From NCBI RefSeq assembly GCF_006345805.1, contig NC_043026.1, positions 2,480,001 through 2,544,000 on the forward strand: DNA of 64,000 nt, given 5' to 3'. This DNA is from Octopus sinensis (Eukaryota). Under the pieces are notes generated by a model. That model worked only from the letters and a program-made list of their open reading frames with translations, had not been told where the DNA came from and ran no database searches. A program made the position numbers and the translations under genes. Shown here one piece after another: positions 13,791 to 48,078 of the stretch; position 1 is the stretch's first letter; each line of letters begins with the position of its first letter.

Positions 13791-14519
13791 ATATATATAT
13801 ATATAGGATATAGGAAAAAGCTCTTTCTCAAGTCACTTAACTCATAAGGGCCGGTTTCCTGAATTCCTTAGTGCATATATTCCCCCACTGGAAAGGACAC
13901 TGGTCGGTCACAATCTTAATTTGCCAGCTGAATAGACTGGAACAATATGAAAGGAAGTGTCTTGCTCAAGAGCGCAATGCATTGCTTGACCTTGGAATTG
14001 GAACCACAATCTAATGATCACGAGTCCAACAAACTAACCATTAAACCACATGCCTCAAGGTTCCCATGCCAAGTCTTAATCAGTAAGCTCACTTCAGGGA
14101 AGCAAAAGACCATGGGCTTGCCCTCCTTGAAGATACAAGGACCAACTCAAAGCAACCCTGAAAGCCACTGGAATTGAACCTAAATCATTTGAAACACAAG
14201 CCTGAGACCATACCAAGTGGCGGTGTTTCATCACCATTGGAACCACAAACTTCAAAGCCACCAGAAGAGAAAAAGAAGAAATCAAAGGACAGGAGAGAAA
14301 GGCTCGAAAAAAACATCAACCTCATCCTCCATCAACATTGCCATGCAGTCAAAGCCATCGATTCTTCTAAGCAAGAATTGGTTGACTGAGTCATCAATGG
14401 CATCACCATAAAAGGAAGCGTTCAGAAAAGAAGAAAATAATTCTCAGATACAAGATAAAGCCACCACGGTCAATTACATATATATACACACACACAAATA
14501 TATATATATATATATGAAG

Positions 14520-14805
14520 TGTTTAATGCCACCTAAACATGGCTGTGCCTTAGGAACTGACGTTACTGTTTACTTTTCTATATATTGTGAGCTATATTTA
14601 GCAGACGAGTATGAGCAAGGATGACCATAAGGAGGTTGAAACCATACAGTTTGATGGTCTTGAAGCTAGGATAGTAGAGAGTTCTCTCCCTGTTTTCAAT
14701 ATAAATCGAGTGCAGAGTGCAGTGTGTAACCAGCTGGAGGAGGGGTTCAAATGGCAGTATCATCAGTTCCTAAGGAACAGCCGTGTTTAGGGGGCATTAA
14801 ACACG
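14520..14805. mobile_element. Small inverted pLTR-like element, structurally related to the 21730 and 35650 families
   Basis: 14520-14568 is inverted relative to 14755-14804. Carries the CCAGCUGG...GGGGUU...CAGUA motif and a hammerhead remnant with a deleted 5' core (gaccat...GAAAC...atggtc). Confidence 0.6.
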
Positions 14806-15061
14806 ACTCATCAGTGTAAAAACTGCTTTTGTATCTTACAGAGATTTTCTTAAGAAGCTAGTTTGCTTTTTTGTGTATATATGTATATACATGTATGTAT
14901 GTATGTATGTATACATATATATATGTATGTGTGTGTGTGTGTATGTAGGCATGCATGTATGTATTATGTATGTGTGTGTGTGTGTGTGTGTATACATACA
15001 TACATACATGCATGCATACATATGTATCTTATTTTTTAACATATATATATGCATACATATA

Positions 15062-15105
<44 letters not shown>

Positions 15106-15132
15106 ATAATATGTTACATTACTCGGTAGTCA

Positions 15133-15195
15133 AGATAAAACTTTGAGTTTCAGATGCCGAAGTGGAAATCCACAACACCATCTCTTCGGTTATCT
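15133..15195 (-). ncRNA. Hammerhead-like motif in the inverted 5' pLTR, CCGAAGA core
   Basis: Reverse-complement copy of 17292-17354. Confidence 0.7.
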
Positions 15196-17291
15196 GGCTA
15201 TTTGAAAACGCTATGAAAAAATACCGTTAAATAATTAAATAATTAATCCCAGGATTAAAGGCTTGGAAGATTTCGAAGCGGACCTGCTGAAAATTATGAG
15301 CAAAATAAAATTTCGTAAGTCTTTTAACGATTTCCAACATAAATTGAAAAAAGATATTAAACATAGAAAAAGCTCCAAGAAAAAAGCACTTTTTTGGATA
15401 AAACCAAGAACTTATACCAGGTAGATAACAGCAAATACACACAACTCTTACACAACAGCATCATTAATCATTAATAATTATACTAAGGCTAGGGCACAGA
15501 TATATAACGAAATTAATAATGAAGCTAGCGTCATCGCCGCTAAACTTAAATTAGATGAAAAAAATAGAAGCCCTCCCCCAAAAAGAGGCCTTTATTACTA
15601 TTAAAGATCACAAAGAAAACTTCCTTTCCAACCCTAAATGTAGGCTTATCAACCCAGCCAAGTCAGAACTAGGGATTATTAGCAAAGAAATTTTAGATAA
15701 AATAAATGCGAAAATTAAGAACGCTACTAGGCTAGTACAATGGTCCAATAGTATAGAAGTCGTAGACTGGTTTAAAGCTATTAAGAATAAGAAAAAAGCG
15801 AGGTTTACACAATTCGATATTGTTGATTTTTATGCCTCTATCTCTAAAGAACTGCTAGATAAAGCCCTCATCTTCGCTAGCGACTTCATAGAAATTAGTA
15901 CCAATGATAAGGACATAATCTACCATGCTATAAAGATATTACTTTTCAGTAAGAACGCAAAGTGGGTAAAAAACACCGACACAGAGGGCGCTTTCGATGT
16001 GAGCATGGGTTCATATGATGGGGCAGGCATCTGTGATCTAATTGGACTTTTTCTCCTAGATACCTTAGGTAAGACATTCCCTAACGTACATTTCGCCATC
16101 TACAAAGATGATGCCCTCGGACTTAGTATAACTATAGATACTAACCTGACAGTTGTCAATTTCTTAGACGTTTCCTTAGATCTTAATAAGAATATTTATA
16201 AGCCTTATAGGAAGCCCAATGATAGACTTAGTTATATTAATGTAGGTTCATGCCATCCCCCTATAGTATTCAAAAATTTAGTTAAAAATATTAGTAAGAG
16301 GATTTCTAGCCTCTCCTCTGATGAGGACATCTTCAATAGCATTGCCCAAGTTTATTATAAGGCTTTAAAAGATAGAGGTCTTAGCGAAAAAATAAAATAT
16401 ACACCTATCACCAGCCCAACAATAAGGAAAAGGAATAATAGAAATAGGAAGGTCATCTGGTTTACGCCCCCTTACTCACCCGAGGTGGCCTTCAATATAG
16501 GTAAATATTTCCTAGCACTGATAGATAGACATTTTCCAGTTAACCATGCTTATAGGAAACTCTTCAATAGACACAATTTAAAAACCAATTTTAAAAACAT
16601 AATCAAACATAACATACAAAAAACACAACAAGAAAACAGCTGTTCATGCAGGAATAAAGAATTGTGCCTGCTAAATGGAGCTTGCATGTCCAAGACCATC
16701 ATATATGAAGCTACCGTAAACTCTATAATGACTAAAGACACCGTTTCGACGAAGAAATACGTGGGCCTTACAGAGGGTAATTTCAAGGCCAGGTTCAATA
16801 ACCACACTTTGAGCTTTAGGCACTGGAACAAAAGAAAAGCGACACAATTATCTAATCATATTTGGTCTTTAAGAGATAAAGGTGTCGATTATAACATACA
16901 ATGGAAGATTTTGGCCAGATGTAAGCCCTATACTAACGGCAGCGGAAGGTGCGGTCTATGCGACATGGAGAGATGGCTTATCTGGAAAAGCAGCTTAGAC
17001 CCTACTACATGTCTAAATACAAGGACAGAGCTTTTCGGATCATGCCCACATGTGACTAAATTTCTGTTACGTTTTTGGTCCCCTAAAGAAAACAGATAGA
17101 ACATGCTTTTTATGTTATGTCCCAAGAAGAATTTATATATTTTTATATATTTTTATATATTTTTTATGTATTTTTATATAATTTTTATGACGAAAAATGC
17201 GAGCAATGTATAAGTACGCAGGCAAGCAGAGTTATAACAGAGTAATTTCCCTTTATTTAACGGTATTTTTTCATAGCGTTTTCAAATAGCC

Positions 17292-17354
17292 AGATAACCG
17301 AAGAGATGGTGTTGTGGATTTCCACTTCGGCATCTGAAACTCAGAGTTTTATCT
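17292..17354 (+). ncRNA. Type I hammerhead-like motif in the PLE 3' pLTR, CCGAAGA core
   Basis: agauaa CCGAAGA gaug...cauc u GAAAC ucaga GUU uuaucu. Stem I agauaa/uuaucu. Confidence 0.72.
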
Positions 17355-17681
17355 TGACTACCGAGTAATGTAACATATTATTGTATAGATAAATTTCCTC
17401 TATTTACATAATATTGAGGTCTCTTTCTTTCTTTTGTTATCTTACCGTTTTACCAATATATATATATATATGTATATATATATATGTAATATACATATGC
17501 ACATATACACACATACATTATTACATCTATACATGCATACACACACACAAACACACATATACAAACACATACACATATATATGCATGTATATATATATAT
17601 AATATATATATATATATATAATATATATATATATATAATATACATACATATACACACACATATCTATGTATGTATATACAT

Positions 17682-19866: not shown

Positions 19867-21360
19867 GATTACACATGTACATATACATACATGGTATTCT
19901 ATATAAGGCTGACAAGGTGATGTAGGTTGTTTAACCCTCAGCAAAGAAGTAATGGGTTACTGATAAACAATGATTAAATCTGAAATCAGTGCTGATATGA
20001 CTCCATCTCCCTTGTCGGCCATTAGTAAAGTGCTCTCACGTGGCTAAGAGATGTTTTCACTCTTATTTCTAGCAATGCTGGTGCTTACTAGCACCCTACA
20101 TCACTTTAATAACAACTATACTTGTATGTGTGTGTGTATATATATATATACTCTTTTTATTCTTTTACTTGTTTCATCCACTTAACTGTGGCTATGCTGG
20201 AGCACCGCCTTTAGTCAAGCAAATCGACTCCAGGACTTATTCTTTGTAAGCCTAGTACTTATTCTATCAGTCTCTTTTGCCAAACTACTAAGTTACAGGG
20301 ACGTAAACACACCAACACACCAGCATCAGTTGTCAAGCGATGTGAGGGGGACAAACACAGACATACAAACATATACACACACATTAAATATATATATATA
20401 TACATATATATACGATGGGCTTCTTTCAGTTTCCATCTACCAAATCCACTCACAATGCTTTGGTAGGCCTGAGGCTATTGTAGAAGACACTTGCCCAAGT
20501 TGCCACGCAGTGGGACTGAACCTGGAACCATGTGGTTGGTAAGCAAACTACTTATCACACAGCCGCTCCTACGCCTATATATATATATATATATATATAT
20601 ATACCAGCGATGTGTAGCAACATCTGATAGCCTGGTCAGTCACGGTGTTATATTATATATATATTATATTAAAATTATATTAAAATTATATTAAAATTTA
20701 TATATATATATATATTATATTTTGTGGAATTTGATTTAGTATTTCTAAATTGAATTTTTCCCTGTAAGTTTGGAATAATATTCCCTCATATTAATATTAT
20801 TATTATTATATACATATATATATATACATATATATATATATATGATTACACATGTACATATACATACATGGTATTCTATATAGGCTGACAAGGTGATGTA
20901 GGTTGTTTAACCTCAGCAAAGAAGTAATGGGTTACTGATGAAGAATGATTAAATCTGAAATCAGTGCTGATATGACTCCATCTCCCTTGTCGGCCATTAG
21001 TAAAGTGCTCTCACGTGGCTAAGAGATGTTTTCACTCTTATTTCTAGCAATGCTGGTGCTTACTAGCACCCTACATCACTTTAATAACAACTATACTTGT
21101 ATGTGTGTGTGTATATATATATAATCTTTTTATTCTTTTACTTGTTTCATCCACTTAACTGTGGCCATGCTGGAGCACCGCCTTTAGTCAAGCAAATCGA
21201 CTCCAGGACTTATTCTTTGTACACCTAGTACTTATTTTATCAGTCTCTTTTGCCAAACTGCTAAGTTACAGGGACGTAAACACACCAACACACCAGTATC
21301 AGTTGTCAAGCGATGTAGTGGGGACAAACACAGACACACAAACATATACACACACATTAA

Positions 21361-21729: not shown

Positions 21730-22293
21730 ATAAAAAATCTCTGAACGAGATGTAAACAGTAACTGCACGACAGTGTGAGGTATACTAGCCATCTCAATAT
21801 GGCTAACCACTAAGGGTCGGTGTTACTGTAGCTTTTAGCCCCAGGAGAACATCGTCTCCAGCTGGCTTTAGGCACACTTTCTGTGCCCTTATGGTATTTG
21901 CAAAGGGAACTCATCCCTCTCTCGTAAACCTAAGTGATACACAAGGACTGCAGTTTCTAGGTATTTGCCTGTCTTCGGCATACGGCAATCACCGGTTTTC
22001 GATGAAGGGAGTCCATTTGCAAATCCTTATATATCGTTTTTCCAGTAACTTTTCGTCACTGATTTCAAAAACCGGTGATTGCCGTACGTTGACAAGAGGC
22101 AAATACCCAGAAACTGCAGTCCATGCGTATCACTTAGGTTGACGAGGGAAGGATGACCTCCCTTTGCAAATACCATAAGGGCACAGAAAGTGTGCCAAAA
22201 GCCAGCCAGAGACGATGATCTCCTGGGGCTAAAAGCTACAGTAACACCCACCCTTAGTGGTTAGCCATATTGAGATGGCAAGTATACCTTACA
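21730..22293. mobile_element. Inverted pair of PLE-type pseudo-LTRs carrying hammerheads (non-coding)
   Basis: Arms 21774-21999 and 22067-22293 are diverged reverse complements, with a hammerhead motif in each arm and (TA)n flanks. Confidence 0.8.
21934..21992 (-). ncRNA. Type I hammerhead-like motif, CCGAAGA core (decayed mirror copy at 22075-22133, +)
   Basis: gugau..cguaug CCGAAGA c agg caaaua ccu a GAAAC ugca GUC cuugugu aucac. Palindromic ACUGCAGU stem III. Confidence 0.72.
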
Positions 22294-24099: not shown

Positions 24100-24175
24100 G
24101 CGGTACATATGTTTCGGGCCTTATTAGACAGATTTATAACAATGCATAAGTATGTCTGTGGCCTTCTTCAGCCGC
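24100..24175 (-). ncRNA. Type I hammerhead ribozyme motif (mirror copy, same sense as the PTER pre-mRNA)
   Basis: Reverse complement of 24578-24655 with the core intact. Confidence 0.85.
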
Positions 24176-24577
24176 GCACAACAACTTCTTCCACAAGGAC
24201 ATGTGTTACATCAAGAATTCTTGGTTGGGGATGCAAATCCTCTCATTCGCGTACGACATAATGCGGCAACAGCATAGAAGTGAAGCGTCCATCTCGTTCT
24301 TCTCTCAATGTAGAATGAGGAAATTTGGATGTTGAAGTAATGTAAATAAATTAATAAATAAATTTATTTACATTAATTTATTAATTTATTTACATAAATT
24401 AATTTATTTACATTACTTCAACATCCAAATTTCCTCATTCTACATTGAGAGAAGAACGAGATGGACGCTTCACTTCTATGCTGTTGCCGCATTATGTCGT
24501 ACGCGAATGAGAGGATTTGCATCCCCAACCAAGAATTCTTGATGTAACACATGTCCTTGTGGAAGAAGTTGTTGTGC

Positions 24578-24655
24578 GCGGCTGAAGAAGGCCACAGACA
24601 TACATTATGCATTGTTATAAATCTGTCTAATAAAGGCCCGAAACATATGTACCGC
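24578..24655 (+). ncRNA. Type I hammerhead ribozyme motif, canonical core
   Basis: gcgg CUGAAGA a-ggcc-acaga...ucugu..ggcc-c GAAAC auau GUA ccgc. Stem I gcgg/ccgc, palindromic minimal stem III, predicted cleavage after 24651. Confidence 0.85.
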
Positions 24656-34583: not shown

Positions 34584-35515
34584 ATATATAATATATATAT
34601 AGTATATTTATATATATATATATATATAGATATATATATATATATATATTATAATATATATATACATATATATAATATATAAAATATTATATATATAAAT
34701 AATATATATATATATTATATATAATATATATATATATATAATATATATGTTATATATATATATACATATATATAATGAATTAAAAGCATTGGTGATGTTG
34801 TAAATTATTATCAACTCAGTGAATGTGTTTTTGCTCGTTTACAGTATAGTGCATTGTGGACGACTCCTTCATAGCATCATCATCATCATCATCATCATCG
34901 TTTAACGTCTGCTTTCCATGCTGGTATGGGTTGGACGGTTTGACTAGGGGTTGGCAAGCCAGAAGGCTGTACCAGTGGGTATCATAGACACATGACACAG
35001 CTCATCTCCAATCCCATTCAGGAGTGATGGATACAGATATTTACCATTTTGGAGGTTTATCAACATCATGTACCTGAATCGAACCTGGGATGAACTTTAT
35101 ACAAAGAAGAGTCAAATGCATTTATGGCCTCTGTGTGTGCGTGTGAGTGCATGTGTGTGTGTGTGTGTGTGTGTGAACTTGTGTTTGTAAGGCCACAACA
35201 TTGGTCAGTGTCTGCTCAGTCAACCTAGTACTGAACTGGACCTTTGTTCATCAACCCAAAAAGTATGCAAAGTTGACCTCAGTGAAATTTGAACTCAGAA
35301 CAGAATGCCACTCAGCATTTTCTCCAGCATGCTAACAATTCTGCCAGTTCCCCATCTTGAATGGTAAAAAGCTGTAAAAAGGATGGAAAAGGAAACAGAA
35401 ACCCATAAATGAGAAACAAACAACAACATCAAAAAATGCTGCGCCATTCATTATGGGTACCTGACAAGATTTTAAAAAAAGGGAGAGAAACTAAAGCCAT
35501 AAATAAGTATGTTAC

Positions 35516-35627
35516 CTGTGCCTGCAATGATATTCACACCTGACTGTTCAGAGACTTTCTTCAAGAATTCAACATTTGGATTTAATCCAATCACAGTGTT
35601 GTCTACAATAGACGATCCACCATTTGC
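35516..35627 (-). CDS. PTER: Phosphotriesterase-related protein, first coding exon found (internal exon)
   Basis: ttcttcag|...|gtaaca splice sites. Translates ANGGSSIVDNTVIGLNPNVEFLKKVSEQSGVNIIAGT(G), matching the PTER segment ANGG..IV.NT..G......LK...E.SGV.II.G.G. Phase 0 to 1. Confidence 0.95.
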
Positions 35628-35649: not shown

Positions 35650-36515
35650 GGAGAAAAACAACTTATTTTAAATCTCTGAGTGAGAGATTATACAGTAACA
35701 GTACCAAACAGTAATACATATATATAAGCCAACTGAATGTGGCAGTCCTATAAAGGACAGTGTTACTGTTGTTATAGCCCCAGGAAAACCTCTTTTCTAG
35801 CTGGCTATCAACAGACAGTTTGTGTCTGTATAGCATTTGTGAGGGAGGTCATCGCTCCCATCTCTAGCCTTATGTGATACTCACAGCCCCAGGTTTCTAG
35901 GTGCTTACCTGTCCTCAGTGTAAGACAATCACAGGCTAGTCACAAAAGCTTTCTCCACTCACAAATGCTAGATATTTTTTAAGCAACAAACAGTCGCTGT
36001 TCTTGTAGAGAGAAAAACAACTTGTTTTAAATCTTAGAATGAGAGATATATAGTAACAGTACCAAATAGTAATGTTTATATCCTAACAGAATGTGGCAGT
36101 CCTATAAAGGACGGTGTTACTATTGTTATAGCCCCAGGAAAACATCAGTAACATCGTCCTCTATAGGACTGCCACATTCTGTTGGCATATAAGCATTACT
36201 ATTCGGTACTGCTACAGTATATCTCTCTCAAGTTGTTTTTCTCTCTACAAGTTCAGCGACTGTGTGTCACTTAGAAAATAGATAACATTTGTGAGTGGAG
36301 AAAGTTTTTGTCACTCGCCTGTGATTGCCTCACAATGAAACCCAGGGCTGTGAGTATCATGTAAGGCTAGAGATAGGAGCAATGACCTCCCTTGTGAATG
36401 CTATACGGACACAAACTGTGTGTCAACAGCCAGCTGGAAAAGAGGTTTTCCTGGGGCTATGACAACAGTAACAACGTCCTTTATAGGACTGCCACATTCT
36501 GTTGGCATATAAAGC
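35650..36515. mobile_element. Tandem plus inverted array of PLE-type pseudo-LTR copies
   Basis: Unit 35650-36005, partial direct copy 36008-36145, then inverted copies 36146-36250 and 36250-36512. Shares motifs with the 21730-22293 family. Confidence 0.8.
35874..35932 (-). ncRNA. Hammerhead-like motif with non-canonical cleavage triplet (GGC)
   Basis: gugau..cuuaca CUGAGGA c aggu aagc accu a GAAAC cugg GGC ugugag u aucac. Same architecture as 21934-21992. Confidence 0.6.
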
Positions 36516-37519
36516 TTTCATATATATATATATATATATATCATTATTAATATATCAGGGGCAAATTCATTATAAATATTAACCTTACTAATTAATTTAA
36601 TCACAAATCATAATGGGAAACTTTTGTTATACCCATTCTTGAAATTTGATGGCAGGTGTCCTGAAATAACAAAGCACACCCCACAACATATTGTATCATA
36701 AGATGGTACCATGAGTATCGTAGGATAATGGGAAAACTACAAAAAATTAACGGTGAAGAGTGCTTTGACAGCAGAGTTGCAGGTTCGTTTTCGTGGTGAG
36801 AAGTTGTATGTTTAAATTAATTTAAAATTCCTGAACTAAAACTAATTTTTTTTTACAATAATTTTTTTCTTAGAATATCATCATAAAAACTTTGATCTTA
36901 ATTTGTTTTCAAAACTAAATAATACACTTTTAGAATTCAGAACCAAAACTTAAGTCGGGTCTAATTCTGGCATTGTTAGTGCACCAAACACTACAAGTTT
37001 GGGTAAAGTCAGCAGTTTTGTCATTCGATGTGAAAGGTGGTGCATTAATATTTTGCTCAGTGAATTTTGTGATTCTTTCTAGTTTTATGCTTAGGTATTT
37101 TAATTAAAATTTAATTAGTGTTGATTTTAAACATCTGTTCACATTTTGAATAGAAATACACAGCTTGTCTGCCTAATTTGAGTAATACTAATGTCAGCAT
37201 GGTGAGTGTGGCAGCACACCCAATGACCACCACCACCATACGCCACTGACACATATATGCATATGTGTCTATATATGTATATATATGTATATTGGTTTCA
37301 AATTCTGGCACAAGGCTTGTAAGTTCAAGGGAAGAGGTAAGATGATAACAGCGACCCCTAGTGCTCAACTGGTCCTTATTTTATCAACCCTGAAGGGATG
37401 AAAAGCAAAGTTGGCCTCAGTGGAATTTGAACTTGGAACCTGAAGGCAGGTGAAATGCTGCCAAGCATTTTGCCCACCCGGCTAATGATTCTGCTTAACG
37501 AATCATTAATAGTCTTTTA

Positions 37520-44513: not shown

Positions 44514-45061
44514 ATGAGTCATGAAGATGAATTAGGGAAGGACGAAACTATGGTGCAGGTGATAGATGAATTAAAAAGGAGGAAAAGCAGATATCACAGG
44601 AGTTGAAGGAACTGAAGGAACTGGAAAAACAGATGAATAAAGATCTAAAGGCAGGTATGAGCAAGTTAGAAGAGTTGGAAATACCCGAGCTAAAGGAACT
44701 GGAAACTCTGGAGCTGAAAGAACCTGAAGATCTGGCGATAGCTGAATTGGATGATCTAGAAGAACTGGAAGAACTGGAAGAAATGGAGATACCTGAGCTG
44801 AAGGAACTGAAGGAAGATTTAGAGGCAAGTGAGATGAAGGAACTAGATCTCGAAATACCGGAGCTAAAGGAGCTGGAAGATCTGGAGATAAATGAGTTGA
44901 AAGATCTGGATGATCTGGAGATAAATGAGTTGAAAGACCTGGATGATCTGGAGATACCTGAGCTGAAAGAACTGGAAGATTTGAAGATAATGGATGACAC
45001 CGAACTGAATAAAGAGATAGAAGACTTGGAGTGTTTGAAGAATTGGCGGCTCCACTGTTGA
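44514..45061 (+). CDS. Candidate acidic Leu/Glu-rich repeat protein (LEIPELKELED-like 11-aa units); one-base frameshift in an A5 run near the start
   Basis: Open frame 44576-45061 with repeats that vary largely at synonymous positions. The ATG at 44514 follows a cttttcgcag acceptor-like site and joins the repeat frame if one A is added at 44573-44577 (182 aa). Confidence 0.5.
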
Positions 45062-45357
45062 AAAAGAAATGTCAAATCTGTTTAAGTTTGCAATGGCAGT
45101 GTTAAAGTAATATCTTTGGTTTCATCCAAAGATTGGTTTCGTCAGAAAATATAATTCGGAATGTGAAAGTATATTCATTGTTCAAGATGTATTTCAGTCG
45201 ATATAAAAGTTATAAAGATTAGATTTGCGCATAGCTGTTTGCTTATCATTTGCTATCATAACATATTATCTTTTTAACACACGTCATATGAATGTTTCTC
45301 ACATGTATTTATAGACATTAGCTTAAATAATTTTGCAATTATTTGATTTCACTCCAA

Positions 45358-45515
45358 GGCGGCGAGCTGGCAGAATCGTTAGCACACCGGACAAAATGCT
45401 TAACCGTACTTCGTCCGTCTTTACAGTCTGAGTTCAAATTCCACTGAGGTACACTTTGCCTTCGACTTAACCCCTCCTCACGAACTTACTAACCTTTTGC
45501 CAAAGTTTGAAACCG
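45358..45515 (+). mobile_element. SINE family 2 (ggcggcgagctggcagaatcgttagc...gagttcaaattcc)
   Basis: Pol III A/B boxes. Further copies at about 4393-4610 +, 7935-8090 +, 22860-23050 -, 35250-35355 -, 37290-37495 -, 42740-42900 + and 42916-43020 +. Confidence 0.8.
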
Positions 45516-46015
45516 TTATTTTATTTCACTTTGCGGCATGTACTGAAGATCGAATCAGTATTATTTCTGTAAGTATAAACTAAAGGAGAAATGGAGGTGC
45601 AAAACAGATAACAACTGATGGCTTTATTAAGCTACATCAGACCTCTTTCCTCCACGCTAAATATTAGCATGGAGTTAACAGTGCATAGGAATGTCTGGAA
45701 ATTAGTAGCTAATAGGGAACCTATTTCGTTACTAGCAACTCGATATAAACAAGAGTGCATTTTGCACCAAAATCCAGCTTGAGCGTTTCTCTCACGTTAT
45801 CTGCCGCAGTATAGTTTGTTCTAACAGAACATCAATATCTAAGCAGAAATAAATATTATTTCTCAGTACAAATACTGCCTCTGTCGCTTATACACACACA
45901 CACATATATATATATATAGGTACTTAACTCATATAATATACATACATACATAACTATATATATATACATATACATATATGTGTGTGTGTGTGTGTATTTG
46001 TATTTATGTGTGTAT

Positions 46016-46314: not shown

Positions 46315-46709
46315 GATCTTCCAATGGATGTTATCGTTGACACCTTACTGGATAATTTGGTTGTTTTTCTTTTTTCCCAGTGTCTGAAACTGAAGGTGTG
46401 ATTGTTGAACCTGGCTTTGAAATTCCCCTCTGTGAGACCCACATATTTATTTGATGAAACAATGTCCTTAGTGGTTGTAGAGACTACAGTGGCTTCATAA
46501 ATGATGGTCTCGGACATGCAGGCTCCATTTTCGCGGGCACAAATTTTTATCCCTGCATGAACAGCTGGTGGTCATTGTTGTTTTTATGTGTTGTGTGCAA
46601 TTATATTTTTAAAATTAGTAATTGAGCTAAAACTAATTTTTAAGTTATGCCTATTAAAGAGCTTTCTGTAATTATGATTGATTGGAAAATGCCTATCTAT
46701 AAGTGATAA
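46315..46709 (-). mobile_element. Penelope-like fragment related to the 15555 element
   Basis: LSLIDRHFPINHNYRKLFNRHNLK and MSETIIYEATV..KYVGLTEGNFKARFNNHTFSFRHW are nearly identical to segments of ORF 15555-17099. Confidence 0.9.
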
Positions 46710-48078
46710 CGGTTGAAAAAAGAACAAAATAATTAAAAATGACAGAGAATACTGGAAGTATTTAATATTTAGCTTCAATCACACTCTGACATCTTCGACT
46801 GCATGGGGAAATTAAATTTTCAATTTCTTGCTGTGTGATCTTATTCCATTCTTCCCGAAGGGCATTCCATAATTGCTCGGTTATTGTAGGATTTCTGGCA
46901 TTCGAACGTTCTCCTAGAATATTCCACACATTTTTAATAGAATTGAGATCTGGGCTTTGAGCAGACCAATCCATAGCAATAACTTTTTCAGCCTTGAGGA
47001 AGTTCATGACCACCTTAGCCTTGTGACATGGGGCATTGTCCTGCATGAATATGGGTGGTCGCTTAGTTGAATTTCTTAGCACAGGCAAGACATGATCTTT
47101 TACAAGTTGTTTATAAACTCCTGCGTTTACCTTTCCATGTAATCGCACCAAAGGGCCCACAACATCTCCAGATATCATCCCCCAAACCATGACACTTCCT
47201 CCACCAAATTTAACACTAGTCTTAAGGCATTTAGGCGACAATTTTTCACCTACTTTTCTACGAACGTACCTTTTCCCATCTGAGCCAAATTACATAAACT
47301 TAGATTCATCACTGAAATGCACCGTTTGCCATTTTTCTTGAAACCACAACACATGTTCGGTTGCAAAGGTAAGGCAACACTTTTTATTCTTGGAGCTGAT
47401 CAGTGGCTACACTGCAGGTGCTCTTGCTTGTAGGTCATGTTCAACTAAACAACGAGACACAGTTTTTCGAGATAAAGTTTTCTTCAATACAATGCTCATT
47501 TTCCGAGAAACAGCAGCAGCAGTTTTAAATCTGTCCTTTTTAACCAACTTTACCATAGCACGATCTTCTCTCTTGGTCGTTTTTCTTGGCCTACCTGTAG
47601 ACTTTCTTGCTTCACACGAATACCATGAACAACATTTTTTGACTTGTTAACAATCTTTGCAATAGACCCAATACTTAAATTATCCTTCTTTCGAAGCTTA
47701 ATAATCTGCTGACGAATTAGTAACGGAGTAAGTGGCATTATATTAAAGTGCACTGCAGATATTCTTACTAATGTTTAGTAAACGAACCGTCACGTAAACA
47801 AATTCAAAACATTTGAGTTCGCCGGTTAAATATACTAAAACACGGAGTAAAAGCAACCGTTCTGATCATTTTGGCTGCCATGGGTTTTGCAGTAAATCAC
47901 TAAATCATCCATAACTTTTGTATTATCCTCTCAAATTACACCAAAATCGCAGACAATAACAAATAATGTCGTATTTATTGTCTGTGAAAATTATAGAAGA
48001 TAAAACAACTTTGATAAGAAATTATACTTACTTTTCTGATGAAAACAATGCCGTTCTGAACATTTTGACCGTAACTGT
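46710..48078 (-). mobile_element. Tc1-family DNA transposon, degraded, 3' end truncated
   Basis: KFGGGSVMVWG, FMQDNAPCH and WSAQSPDLNSIKNVW motifs. Terminus CAGT/TA at 48078, with an internal repeat of the terminal motif at about 47857-47880 (IR/DR-like). Confidence 0.92.

What the first reader, a model, noticed from the sequence alone, without database searches (positions are those of the whole stretch)
45596..45835. Orphan multi-hairpin element with the same crossing-helix topology but no recognisable hammerhead
Seen: ggugcaaaa (45596-45604) pairs with uuuugcacc (45760-45768), and the directly adjacent cagauaac (45605-45612) pairs with guuaucug (45796-45803), a pseudoknot like that at 20883. 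Inside are hairpins cugaug..caucag, cuccacgcuaa/uagcauggag and uaguagc-aauagg/ccuauu-guuacua. After the first helix come CCAGCU-ugag/cuca, CAGUA and a uguucu/agaaca hairpin, echoing the module at 22200 and 36428. It lies close to (TA)n and a PLE fragment. Inference: a distant member of the same structural class in which the hammerhead is replaced by another domain, possibly an unknown self-cleaving RNA.
Basis: partly seen in the sequence, partly recalled or inferred. Interest (0 to 1): 0.7.

Follow-up and report, generated by a model that had tools for sequence, protein, structure and literature searches.

The report
Ribozyme-less relative of Penelope-type retrozymes
This tightly folding 356-base stretch is one copy of an abundant non-coding repeat that carries no recognisable hammerhead, although it likely shares its tail structure with hammerhead-bearing repeats nearby; it is probably a passenger copied by a Penelope-type retrotransposon enzyme, and a new self-cutting RNA is possible but unsupported.

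Summary
The helices are at the stated coordinates, and the fold beats 200 of 200 shuffles (z -3.9). The element runs about 45533-45888. Its 3' 150 nt belong to a high-copy family: 893-1388 contigs per run in 4 of 4 DNA runs, with inverted and tandem joints. It resembles a hammerhead-remnant element at 14656 (E 1e-4) and, more weakly, the type I hammerhead elements at 22200 and 36428. All share a 3' module whose CAGUA strand closes a helix with the tail (3 of 7 pairs change on both sides). It has no similarity to the 20883 element. No hammerhead of any block order fits the + strand, and Rfam finds no ribozyme, though both tests miss decayed hammerheads. The pseudoknot is shown only in this copy: most relatives differ at 2 of 8 bases of its second helix, and their 5' half could not be read. 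Helix a may also be the end of an eroded inverted arm. Best reading: a non-autonomous, Penelope-mobilised, retrozyme-like unit whose lineage lost the hammerhead core. An unknown ribozyme gets about 10%.

The parts
45533..45888 (+). Whole unit, about 356 nt; same size and landmark order as the 360-nt hammerhead unit at 35690-36049
   Evidence: (z -4.4 for 45530-45888); the 5' limit is inferred from the fold
45535..45604 (+). 5' strand complementary, with gaps, to 45760-45879: outer rod of the RNA or an eroded inverted arm
   Evidence: 1 of 500 shuffles, 0 of 695 window tiles as good
45596..45604 (+). Helix a, 5' strand; likely counterpart of the long helix that encloses the hammerhead in elements A and B
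   Evidence: (pair probability 0.75-0.90)
45605..45612 (+). Helix b, 5' strand (crossing helix; shown only in this copy)
45615..45640 (+). Hairpin 1 (CUGAUG/CAUCAG); holds a 6-of-7 match to the hammerhead C block, sequestered in the stem
45650..45674 (+). Hairpin 2 (10 of 11 pairs)
45675..45702 (+). Segment at the position of the hammerhead GAAAC and cleavage strand of relatives; UUAAC instead of GAAAC, GUC at 45693-45695; possible fossil
   Evidence: inference
45703..45734 (+). Hairpin 4; most relatives have a different sequence here that also forms a stem with the same 3' end
   Evidence: (loose ends)
45760..45768 (+). Helix a, 3' strand; inside the high-copy part
45769..45803 (+). Shared module: CCA, 3-nt bulge, hairpin, then the helix b 3' strand (45796-45803). 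Most relatives restore CCA/UGG and a longer hairpin
45806..45812 (+). CAGUA strand of the closing helix
45817..45831 (+). Hairpin UGUUCU/AGAACA, in the deepest-covered part of the family (45806-45831)
45845..45863 (+). 3' hairpin (8 pairs); pair 45848-45860 is A-U here and G-C in the loose-end consensus of relatives
45872..45878 (+). Tail strand of the closing helix
45890..46067 (.). (CA)n/(TA)n microsatellite at the 3' end, the likely target site
45354..45515 (+). Internally deleted SINE with a 15-nt flanking duplication; separate insertion just 5' of the unit
14575..14840 (+). Relative C: main arm with hammerhead remnants (GAAAC 14638-14642, GUC 14657-14659); short inverted arm at 14516-14570 (minus); (TA)n on both sides
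21738..22293 (.). Relative A: two inverted arms, decayed type I hammerhead (21978-21946, minus), shared 3' module
35690..36516 (.). Relative B: 360-nt tandem unit with inverted arms, type I hammerhead (35918-35886, minus), shared 3' module

Best explanation
45533-45888 is one unit of a high-copy non-coding repeat that carries no recognisable hammerhead and is likely a retrozyme-like passenger of a Penelope-type reverse transcriptase/endonuclease. Shown: the fold, the multicopy 3' part, inverted and tandem joints in relatives, the microsatellite at the 3' end, and the lack of a hammerhead in this copy. Inferred mechanism: a read-through or tandem transcript folds its 3' 120 nt into a module (bulged CCA stem, then a CAGUA helix closing two hairpins and the tail). 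A Penelope-type protein would bind this module, nick a (TA)n target and start reverse transcription at one of two internal sites near the tail, which gives back-to-back arms with and without the tail. The long helix a closes the domain that holds the hammerhead in sister families. In this lineage the core was lost and the space filled with stable hairpins, so the RNA would be copied uncut. Helix b is most likely a lineage-specific loop-to-loop brace or a chance match, not a catalytic pseudoknot.
For: High copy: 893-1388 contigs per run lay on 45741-45888 at 80% likeness or more in 4 of 4 runs. Of the 15 joints listed, 8 change strand and 5 go back 72-147 nt. Homology: this unit finds C at E 1.1e-4; the best of 40 shuffled queries was E 0.13. 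C finds it back at E 1.2e-3 and A at 0.023. Adding this unit to an A+B profile lifts C from undetected to E 6.6e-7. Same size and landmark order as unit B. Closing helix: 36 of 40 cells paired, 3 of 7 pairs change on both sides, covariation score reached by 1 of 500 shuffles. The short arms of A, B (36400) and C stop before the tail and the long arms keep it, as described for PLE insertions (PMC11167929; PMC8557442 Fig. 2 legend). In the Anolis PLE, hammerhead mutants did not impair insertion in vitro (PMC11167929), so a cleavage-less passenger is feasible. No hammerhead arrangement on the + strand with up to 2 core mismatches in any of six block orders.
Against: The direct link to A and B is weak: the A+B profile does not find this unit, A+B+C finds it at E 1, covariance model R1 scores it 9.6 bits, E 2, rank 16 of 41, and model R2 misses it. 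The covariation count rests on 6 related rows from 4 elements and a helix chosen from them. The 5' 210 nt match no high-copy relative, so the family at large may well carry a hammerhead. My hammerhead search also missed the decayed hammerheads of A and B, and Rfam missed B's. There is no (TA)n and no tail-less arm on the 5' side. No partner PLE was identified.
Confidence: 0.5

Rival explanations
1. The copy is a rearranged dead insertion. 45535-45604 is an eroded inverted arm, so helix a and the outer stems reflect DNA duplication. Helix b is a template-switch piece or chance. The family proper is an ordinary hammerhead retrozyme.
For: 45535-45604 aligns collinearly with the reverse complement of 45760-45879. 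It matches this copy's own letters rather than the majority's at 45773, 45865, 45869 and 45870, and in one register at 45834 and 45836. Relatives show strand-changing joints. The contig of organism D lacks 16 nt at about 45597-45615, which removes most of both 5' strands. C keeps GAAAC and GUC at the homologous place.
Against: The putative arm needs several gaps totalling about 50 nt, while relatives align to the main arm over 100 nt with few or no gaps. It includes the tail, which the short arms of A, B and C lack. The inner region 45613-45759 folds at z -4.5 on its own. A and B have a long helix in the position of helix a.
Confidence: 0.25
2. The domain between b and a', braced by the a/b pseudoknot, is a self-cleaving RNA of an unknown class that replaced the hammerhead.
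For: It sits where sister units have their hammerhead. Its hairpins are nearly perfect. Adjacent crossing helices arose in 3 of 1000 shuffles. The same zero-linker topology surrounds the hammerhead at 20883. Tandem relatives would gain from a cutting step.
Against: No conserved unpaired motif can be shown. Most relatives differ at 2 of 8 bases of helix b, and minority letters occur at 45797, 45798 and 45800. C has lost the b' segment. No Rfam ribozyme at E up to 10. CAGUA is paired.
Confidence: 0.1
3. It is the solo 3' end (pseudo-LTR) of an autonomous Penelope-like element, not a protein-free unit.
For: Retrozymes resemble pLTRs, and most PLE insertions are 5'-truncated (10.64898/2026.07.22.740005). 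Naiads lack a canonical hammerhead and target (TA)n (PMC8557442).
Against: No ORF piece adjoins the unit. Short go-back joints in relatives and the 360-nt tandem unit of B fit small units. Six short motifs searched in the Naiad/Hydra supplement gave only scattered hits, none with the module's layout (9 passages shown of 16 occurrences; line breaks can hide matches).
Confidence: 0.1
4. It is a worn, non-circularly permuted hammerhead in G-C-S order: 45582-45593 as G block, helix b plus CUGAUG as C block, 45784-45803 as S block.
For: CUGAUG lies 2 nt after helix b. 45585-45593 pairs with 45784-45792. Permuted hammerheads exist (PMC10085705) and were noted elsewhere in this genome.
Against: It needs three core changes (G12, A9, A15.1), a C-C first pair in stem II and two mismatches next to the core, in a copy whose other helices are intact. 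CUGAUG is locked in a hairpin. Not found by the all-order search. The Naiad split-core layout seen in the supplement has a different strand order.
Confidence: 0.05

Closest known systems
Metazoan non-LTR retrozymes (Cervera and de la Pena 2020, PMC7229834; Li, Clavereau and Pollet 2026, 10.64898/2026.07.22.740005)
   Same: Non-coding unit of 150-450 nt, low GC, highly self-paired, dispersed and tandem copies, co-occurring with PLEs
   Different: No type I hammerhead in this copy, and that is the defining feature. RNA circles not shown. Crossing helices and a conserved 3' module are not described in the parts I read.
Pseudo-LTR and tail of EN+ Penelope-like elements (PMC8557442; PMC11167929; PMC4209133)
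   Same: (TA)n target, inverted and tandem arms in relatives, tail present on one arm only in A, B and C
   Different: No ORF, no hammerhead; this copy has no microsatellite or tail-less arm on its 5' side
Type-SGC and other non-circularly permuted hammerheads (Eckert et al. 2023, PMC10085705)
   Same: Crossing helices; a CUGAUG hexamer next to one helix
   Different: No arrangement of the three blocks fits on the + strand with up to 2 core mismatches
Elements A (21738-22293), B (35690-36516) and C (14516-14840) of this window
   Same: 3' module, closing helix, tail, landmark order and spacing
   Different: They keep GAAAC 92-93 nt before CCAGCU and a type I hammerhead (A, B) or its remnants (C); none shows helix b

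Membership tests
Non-LTR retrozyme | Type I hammerhead in each unit | tested here: not met
   for this copy; the tests miss decayed hammerheads; the family's 5' half was not readable
Non-LTR retrozyme | Non-coding unit of about 150-450 nt, self-paired | tested here: met
   356 nt, z -4.4; no ORF of 150 codons or more overlaps it
Non-LTR retrozyme | Tandem and dispersed copies | tested here: met
   893-1388 contigs per run; 5 go-back joints among the 15 listed; this copy itself is a monomer
Non-LTR retrozyme | Expressed as linear and circular monomer RNA; self-cleaves | not testable with these tools
   only contigs of runs guessed to be RNA were available
PLE-mobilised insertion | Microsatellite target | tested here: inconclusive
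   present on the 3' side, absent on the 5' side
PLE-mobilised insertion | Inverted 5'-truncated arms and optional tail | tested here: met
   8 strand-changing joints among the 15 listed in relatives; tail pattern in A, B, C; unclear for this copy
Autonomous PLE | RT and GIY-YIG ORF adjoining the repeat | tested here: not met
   the nearest PLE fragment is a separate insertion beyond the microsatellite
Permuted hammerhead (SGC, CSG, GCS) | Intact C, G and S blocks with three stems in any order | tested here: not met
   0 on the + strand; 4 two-mismatch fits on the - strand, the level also seen as spurious fits in controls
HDV-like, pistol, twister, hatchet, hairpin ribozymes | Match to the Rfam model or the recalled strand order | tested here: not met
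   two chance hits only (SNORA16 E 0.63, nos_TCE E 4.4); strand orders compared by eye from recall; sensitivity is low
Conserved pseudoknot | Covariation in helix b among copies | not testable with these tools
   only the 3' strand of relatives is visible; no genome is held

The most novel reading that the evidence does not exclude
A lineage of Penelope-mobilised retrozymes swapped its hammerhead for a self-cleaving RNA of a new class, built from the zero-linker a/b pseudoknot and the hairpins it encloses, while keeping the 3' module that the Penelope enzyme recognises.
Probability: 0.1. Interest if true: 0.85.

Novelty: new variant of a known kind. Interest (0 to 1): 0.38.

Why it matters
How protein-free retrozymes are recognised by Penelope-type enzymes is open; the 2026 preprint says the mechanism remains to be elucidated. 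A 3' module kept across four diverged elements, with a covarying helix that locks onto the tail, is a concrete candidate for the recognition and start site and can be tested with a purified PLE protein. A unit that spread without a hammerhead would show the ribozyme is dispensable, and would be missed by retrozyme screens, which require the hammerhead. If it cleaves itself, it would be a new ribozyme class in an animal genome.

Tried and rejected
Whole-genome search: no genome is held. BLASTN of the window found no second copy; only nhmmer found C. Pattern scans: 7 viral loci and 1 metagenome locus matched only the 18-24-nt seed; gapped patterns and prokaryote genomes gave 0. Earlier findings by sequence or place: nothing. 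Rfam over the window gave only microsatellite and palindrome look-alikes. RNA: no RNA holder on record. Two runs guessed to be RNA held only pieces of the family's 3' part (longest listed 45780-45832, 5 differences) and nothing over 45543-45716; I count this as no evidence either way. Young-subfamily idea rejected: the raised depth of the 5' part extends equally over the flank 45050-45339 (140 against 130 in X1, 172 against 149 in X2), so the whole region is duplicated. CAGUA as a cleavage site rejected (paired). A type I skeleton (UUUCC/GGAAA as stem I) has pair probability 0.01 and no C block; kept only as a possible fossil. The count of 4 helices joining the two halves (3 of 1000 shuffles, 4 of 298 tiles) is not independent support, because 3 of the 4 fall in the possible inverted arm. 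Four short motifs in full text gave only unrelated papers. Resemblances to pistol, hairpin, HDV, group I and RNase P strand orders were recalled, checked by eye and dropped.

Full report
1. Observation. Helix a (45596-45604 with 45760-45768, 9 Watson-Crick pairs) and helix b (45605-45612 with 45796-45803, 8 pairs) are in the sequence, adjacent and crossing, and the named hairpins are present. 45590-45840 folds at z -3.88 on the + strand and -3.67 on the - strand, with 0 of 200 shuffles as good. Of 46 non-microsatellite 250-nt tiles of the window, only one, inside element B, went below -2.2. Two crossing helices of this size arose in 15 of 1000 shuffles, adjacent ones in 3 of 1000. The structured stretch is longer than reported: 45530-45888 folds at z -4.4, and the inner 45613-45759 alone at z -4.5.

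2. It is a repeat. No genome is held, so I laid contigs of four DNA runs on 45520-45890 at 80% likeness (4 of the 24 runs listed). 893-1388 contigs lay per run, nearly all on 45741-45888. Summed depth peaked at 45806-45818 at about 380-830 times that of the locus's own contig. The tool warns that this is no copy number, but it implies a large family. Of the 15 joints listed (8 more not shown), 8 change strand, 5 go back 72-147 nt and 2 skip, so relatives occur inverted and in tandem. 45520-45727 was covered by one contig per run. Its raised depth extends equally over the flank 45050-45339, so it reflects duplication of the region and not a young subfamily. In organism D the contig lacks 16 nt at about 45597-45615, which removes most of both 5' strands.

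3. What relatives say about the structure (40 of 142 variant rows shown). Most read G at 45773, AUA at 45777-45779, A at 45784, U at 45795, G at 45797 and A at 45803. This restores a local CCA/UGG stem and a longer hairpin, and changes 2 of 8 bases of the 3' strand of helix b. Their partner strand cannot be seen, so covariation of the pseudoknot is untested. Two local signs favour conserved structure. The hairpin before 45741 has a different sequence in relatives but still forms a stem with the same 3' end. Pair 45848-45860 is A-U here and G-C in the loose-end consensus.

4. Relatives in the window. CCAGCY..CAGUA occurs 6 times against 1.36 expected. Four matches are the arms of elements A (21738-22293) and B (35690-36516). 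Read by eye, both carry a decayed type I hammerhead: in B, stem I UUACA/UGUGA, CUGAGGA, stem II AGGU/ACCU, GAAAC and a 4-nt stem III loop. This is the architecture described for metazoan hammerheads in PMC4209133. The fifth match is element C (14575-14840). The target finds C at E 1.1e-4, while the best of 40 shuffled queries reached E 0.13. C finds the target at E 1.2e-3 and A at 0.023, and a profile of A, B and the target finds C at E 6.6e-7, which A and B alone did not find at E 10. Against this, the target is not found by the A+B profile, only at E 1 by A+B+C, at E 2 by covariance model R1 (rank 16 of 41), and not by model R2. The link to A and B is therefore indirect, through C and through structure. 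The target and unit B have the same size (356 and 360 nt) and landmark order. There is no similarity to the 20883 element.

5. The shared module. All share CCA, a 3-nt bulge and a hairpin, then CAGUA, hairpins and a tail. CAGUA is the 5' strand of a helix closed by the tail: 36 of 40 cells pair, 3 of 7 pairs change on both sides, and the covariation score was reached by 1 of 500 shuffles and by no slid register (6 related rows from 4 elements, helix chosen from them). In the target alone this helix has low ensemble probability (0.07) because other pairings compete. The short arms of A, B (36400) and C stop before the tail and the long arms keep it. That is the signature traced to two internal reverse-transcription start sites in PMC11167929.

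6. No hammerhead here. A, B and C have GAAAC 92-93 nt before CCAGCU; the target has UUAAC at 99 and GUC at 81, and the pairwise alignment with C starts at that GUC. No C block precedes it in register. A search over all six block orders with up to 2 core mismatches gave 0 fits on the + strand and 4 two-mismatch fits on the - strand. It found the 20883 hammerhead but missed the decayed ones of A and B. Rfam gave two chance hits in 371 nt and also missed B's hammerhead. So the copy has no intact hammerhead; a fossil one cannot be excluded, and the family at large may have one.

7. A complication. 45535-45604 aligns collinearly, with gaps, to the reverse complement of 45760-45879 (1 of 500 shuffles, 0 of 695 tiles) and follows this copy's own letters. 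Helix a may thus be the inner end of an eroded inverted arm. Against that are the one-sided gaps of about 50 nt, the included tail, the missing microsatellite on the left, and the long helix at the same position in A (9 pairs) and B (13 pairs). I leave this unresolved.

8. Mechanism. Shown: fold, multicopy 3' part, inverted and tandem relatives, 3' microsatellite, covarying closing helix, no hammerhead in this copy. Inferred: the 3' module is the binding and start site for a Penelope-type protein that nicks (TA)n and copies the RNA; the hammerhead is dispensable, as in the Anolis element in vitro; helix b is a lineage-specific brace or chance. Confidence 0.5. Rivals: rearranged dead copy of an ordinary hammerhead retrozyme 0.25, unknown ribozyme 0.1, solo end of an autonomous PLE 0.1, worn G-C-S hammerhead 0.05.

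9. Comparison and novelty. It works most like a non-LTR retrozyme or PLE pseudo-LTR, but it fails the defining hammerhead test, so I do not file it as a retrozyme. I found no description of this family, of the module or of hammerhead-less units in searches; subscription papers and repeat databases were not searchable. Papers seen: PMC8557442 (passages, section 11, three supplement searches), PMC10085705 (part 3 of 8), 10.64898/2026.07.22.740005 (parts 1-3 of 5; its supplements are closed and may list related families), PMC11167929 (parts 1-2 of 4), PMC7229834 (part 2 of 6 and passages), PMC4209133 (part 1 of 4), PMC6765202 (passages). Hammerhead numbering and the strand orders of other ribozymes are partly recalled. 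That the host is an octopus comes from earlier notes and recall of the SINE; I did not test it. Earlier notes already report many hammerhead retrozyme families in this genome; none shown describes a hammerhead-less one. Verdict: real, a new variant of a known kind, interest 0.38.

Noticed in passing
window 15093-17460: Hydra-clade Penelope-like element: 514-codon frame with a CxCX5C linker (the motif given in PMC8557442 section 11), inverted arms 15093-15234 and 17253-17394, and a hammerhead-like motif near 17290-17345. No Pfam hit at E 0.01. A 75% identical fragment lies at 46351-46708 (minus).
   Followed up: partly
window 14516-14880: Element C: previously unmarked relative with a short inverted arm, (TA)n on both sides and hammerhead remnants; it bridges this unit and elements A and B.
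   Followed up: yes
window 20884-21090: Intact type I hammerhead (core at 20935, AUA triplet) inside two crossing helices with no linker; no sequence similarity to the target.
   Followed up: partly
window 44570-45061: Acidic repeat frame (ELKELEDLEI-type repeats, 163 codons); no Pfam family above cut-off and no Atlas neighbour. The adjoining 45050-45740 region has raised depth in DNA runs, so it is probably duplicated.
   Followed up: partly
window 24150-24603: Perfect 206-nt inverted arms with a CUGAAGA..GAAAC hammerhead core just outside on each side: a very young insertion.
   Followed up: no
window 46762-47289 (minus): Tc1/mariner DDE_3 transposase fragment (Pfam E 6e-9).
   Followed up: no
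window 36048-36124 (minus): A partial copy of unit B has a compensatory C-G to U-A change in the CAGUA closing helix.
   Followed up: yes
window 35510-35625 (minus): Exon-like stretch that reads like a phosphotriesterase-related protein (by recall, not tested); unit B ends next to it.
   Followed up: no
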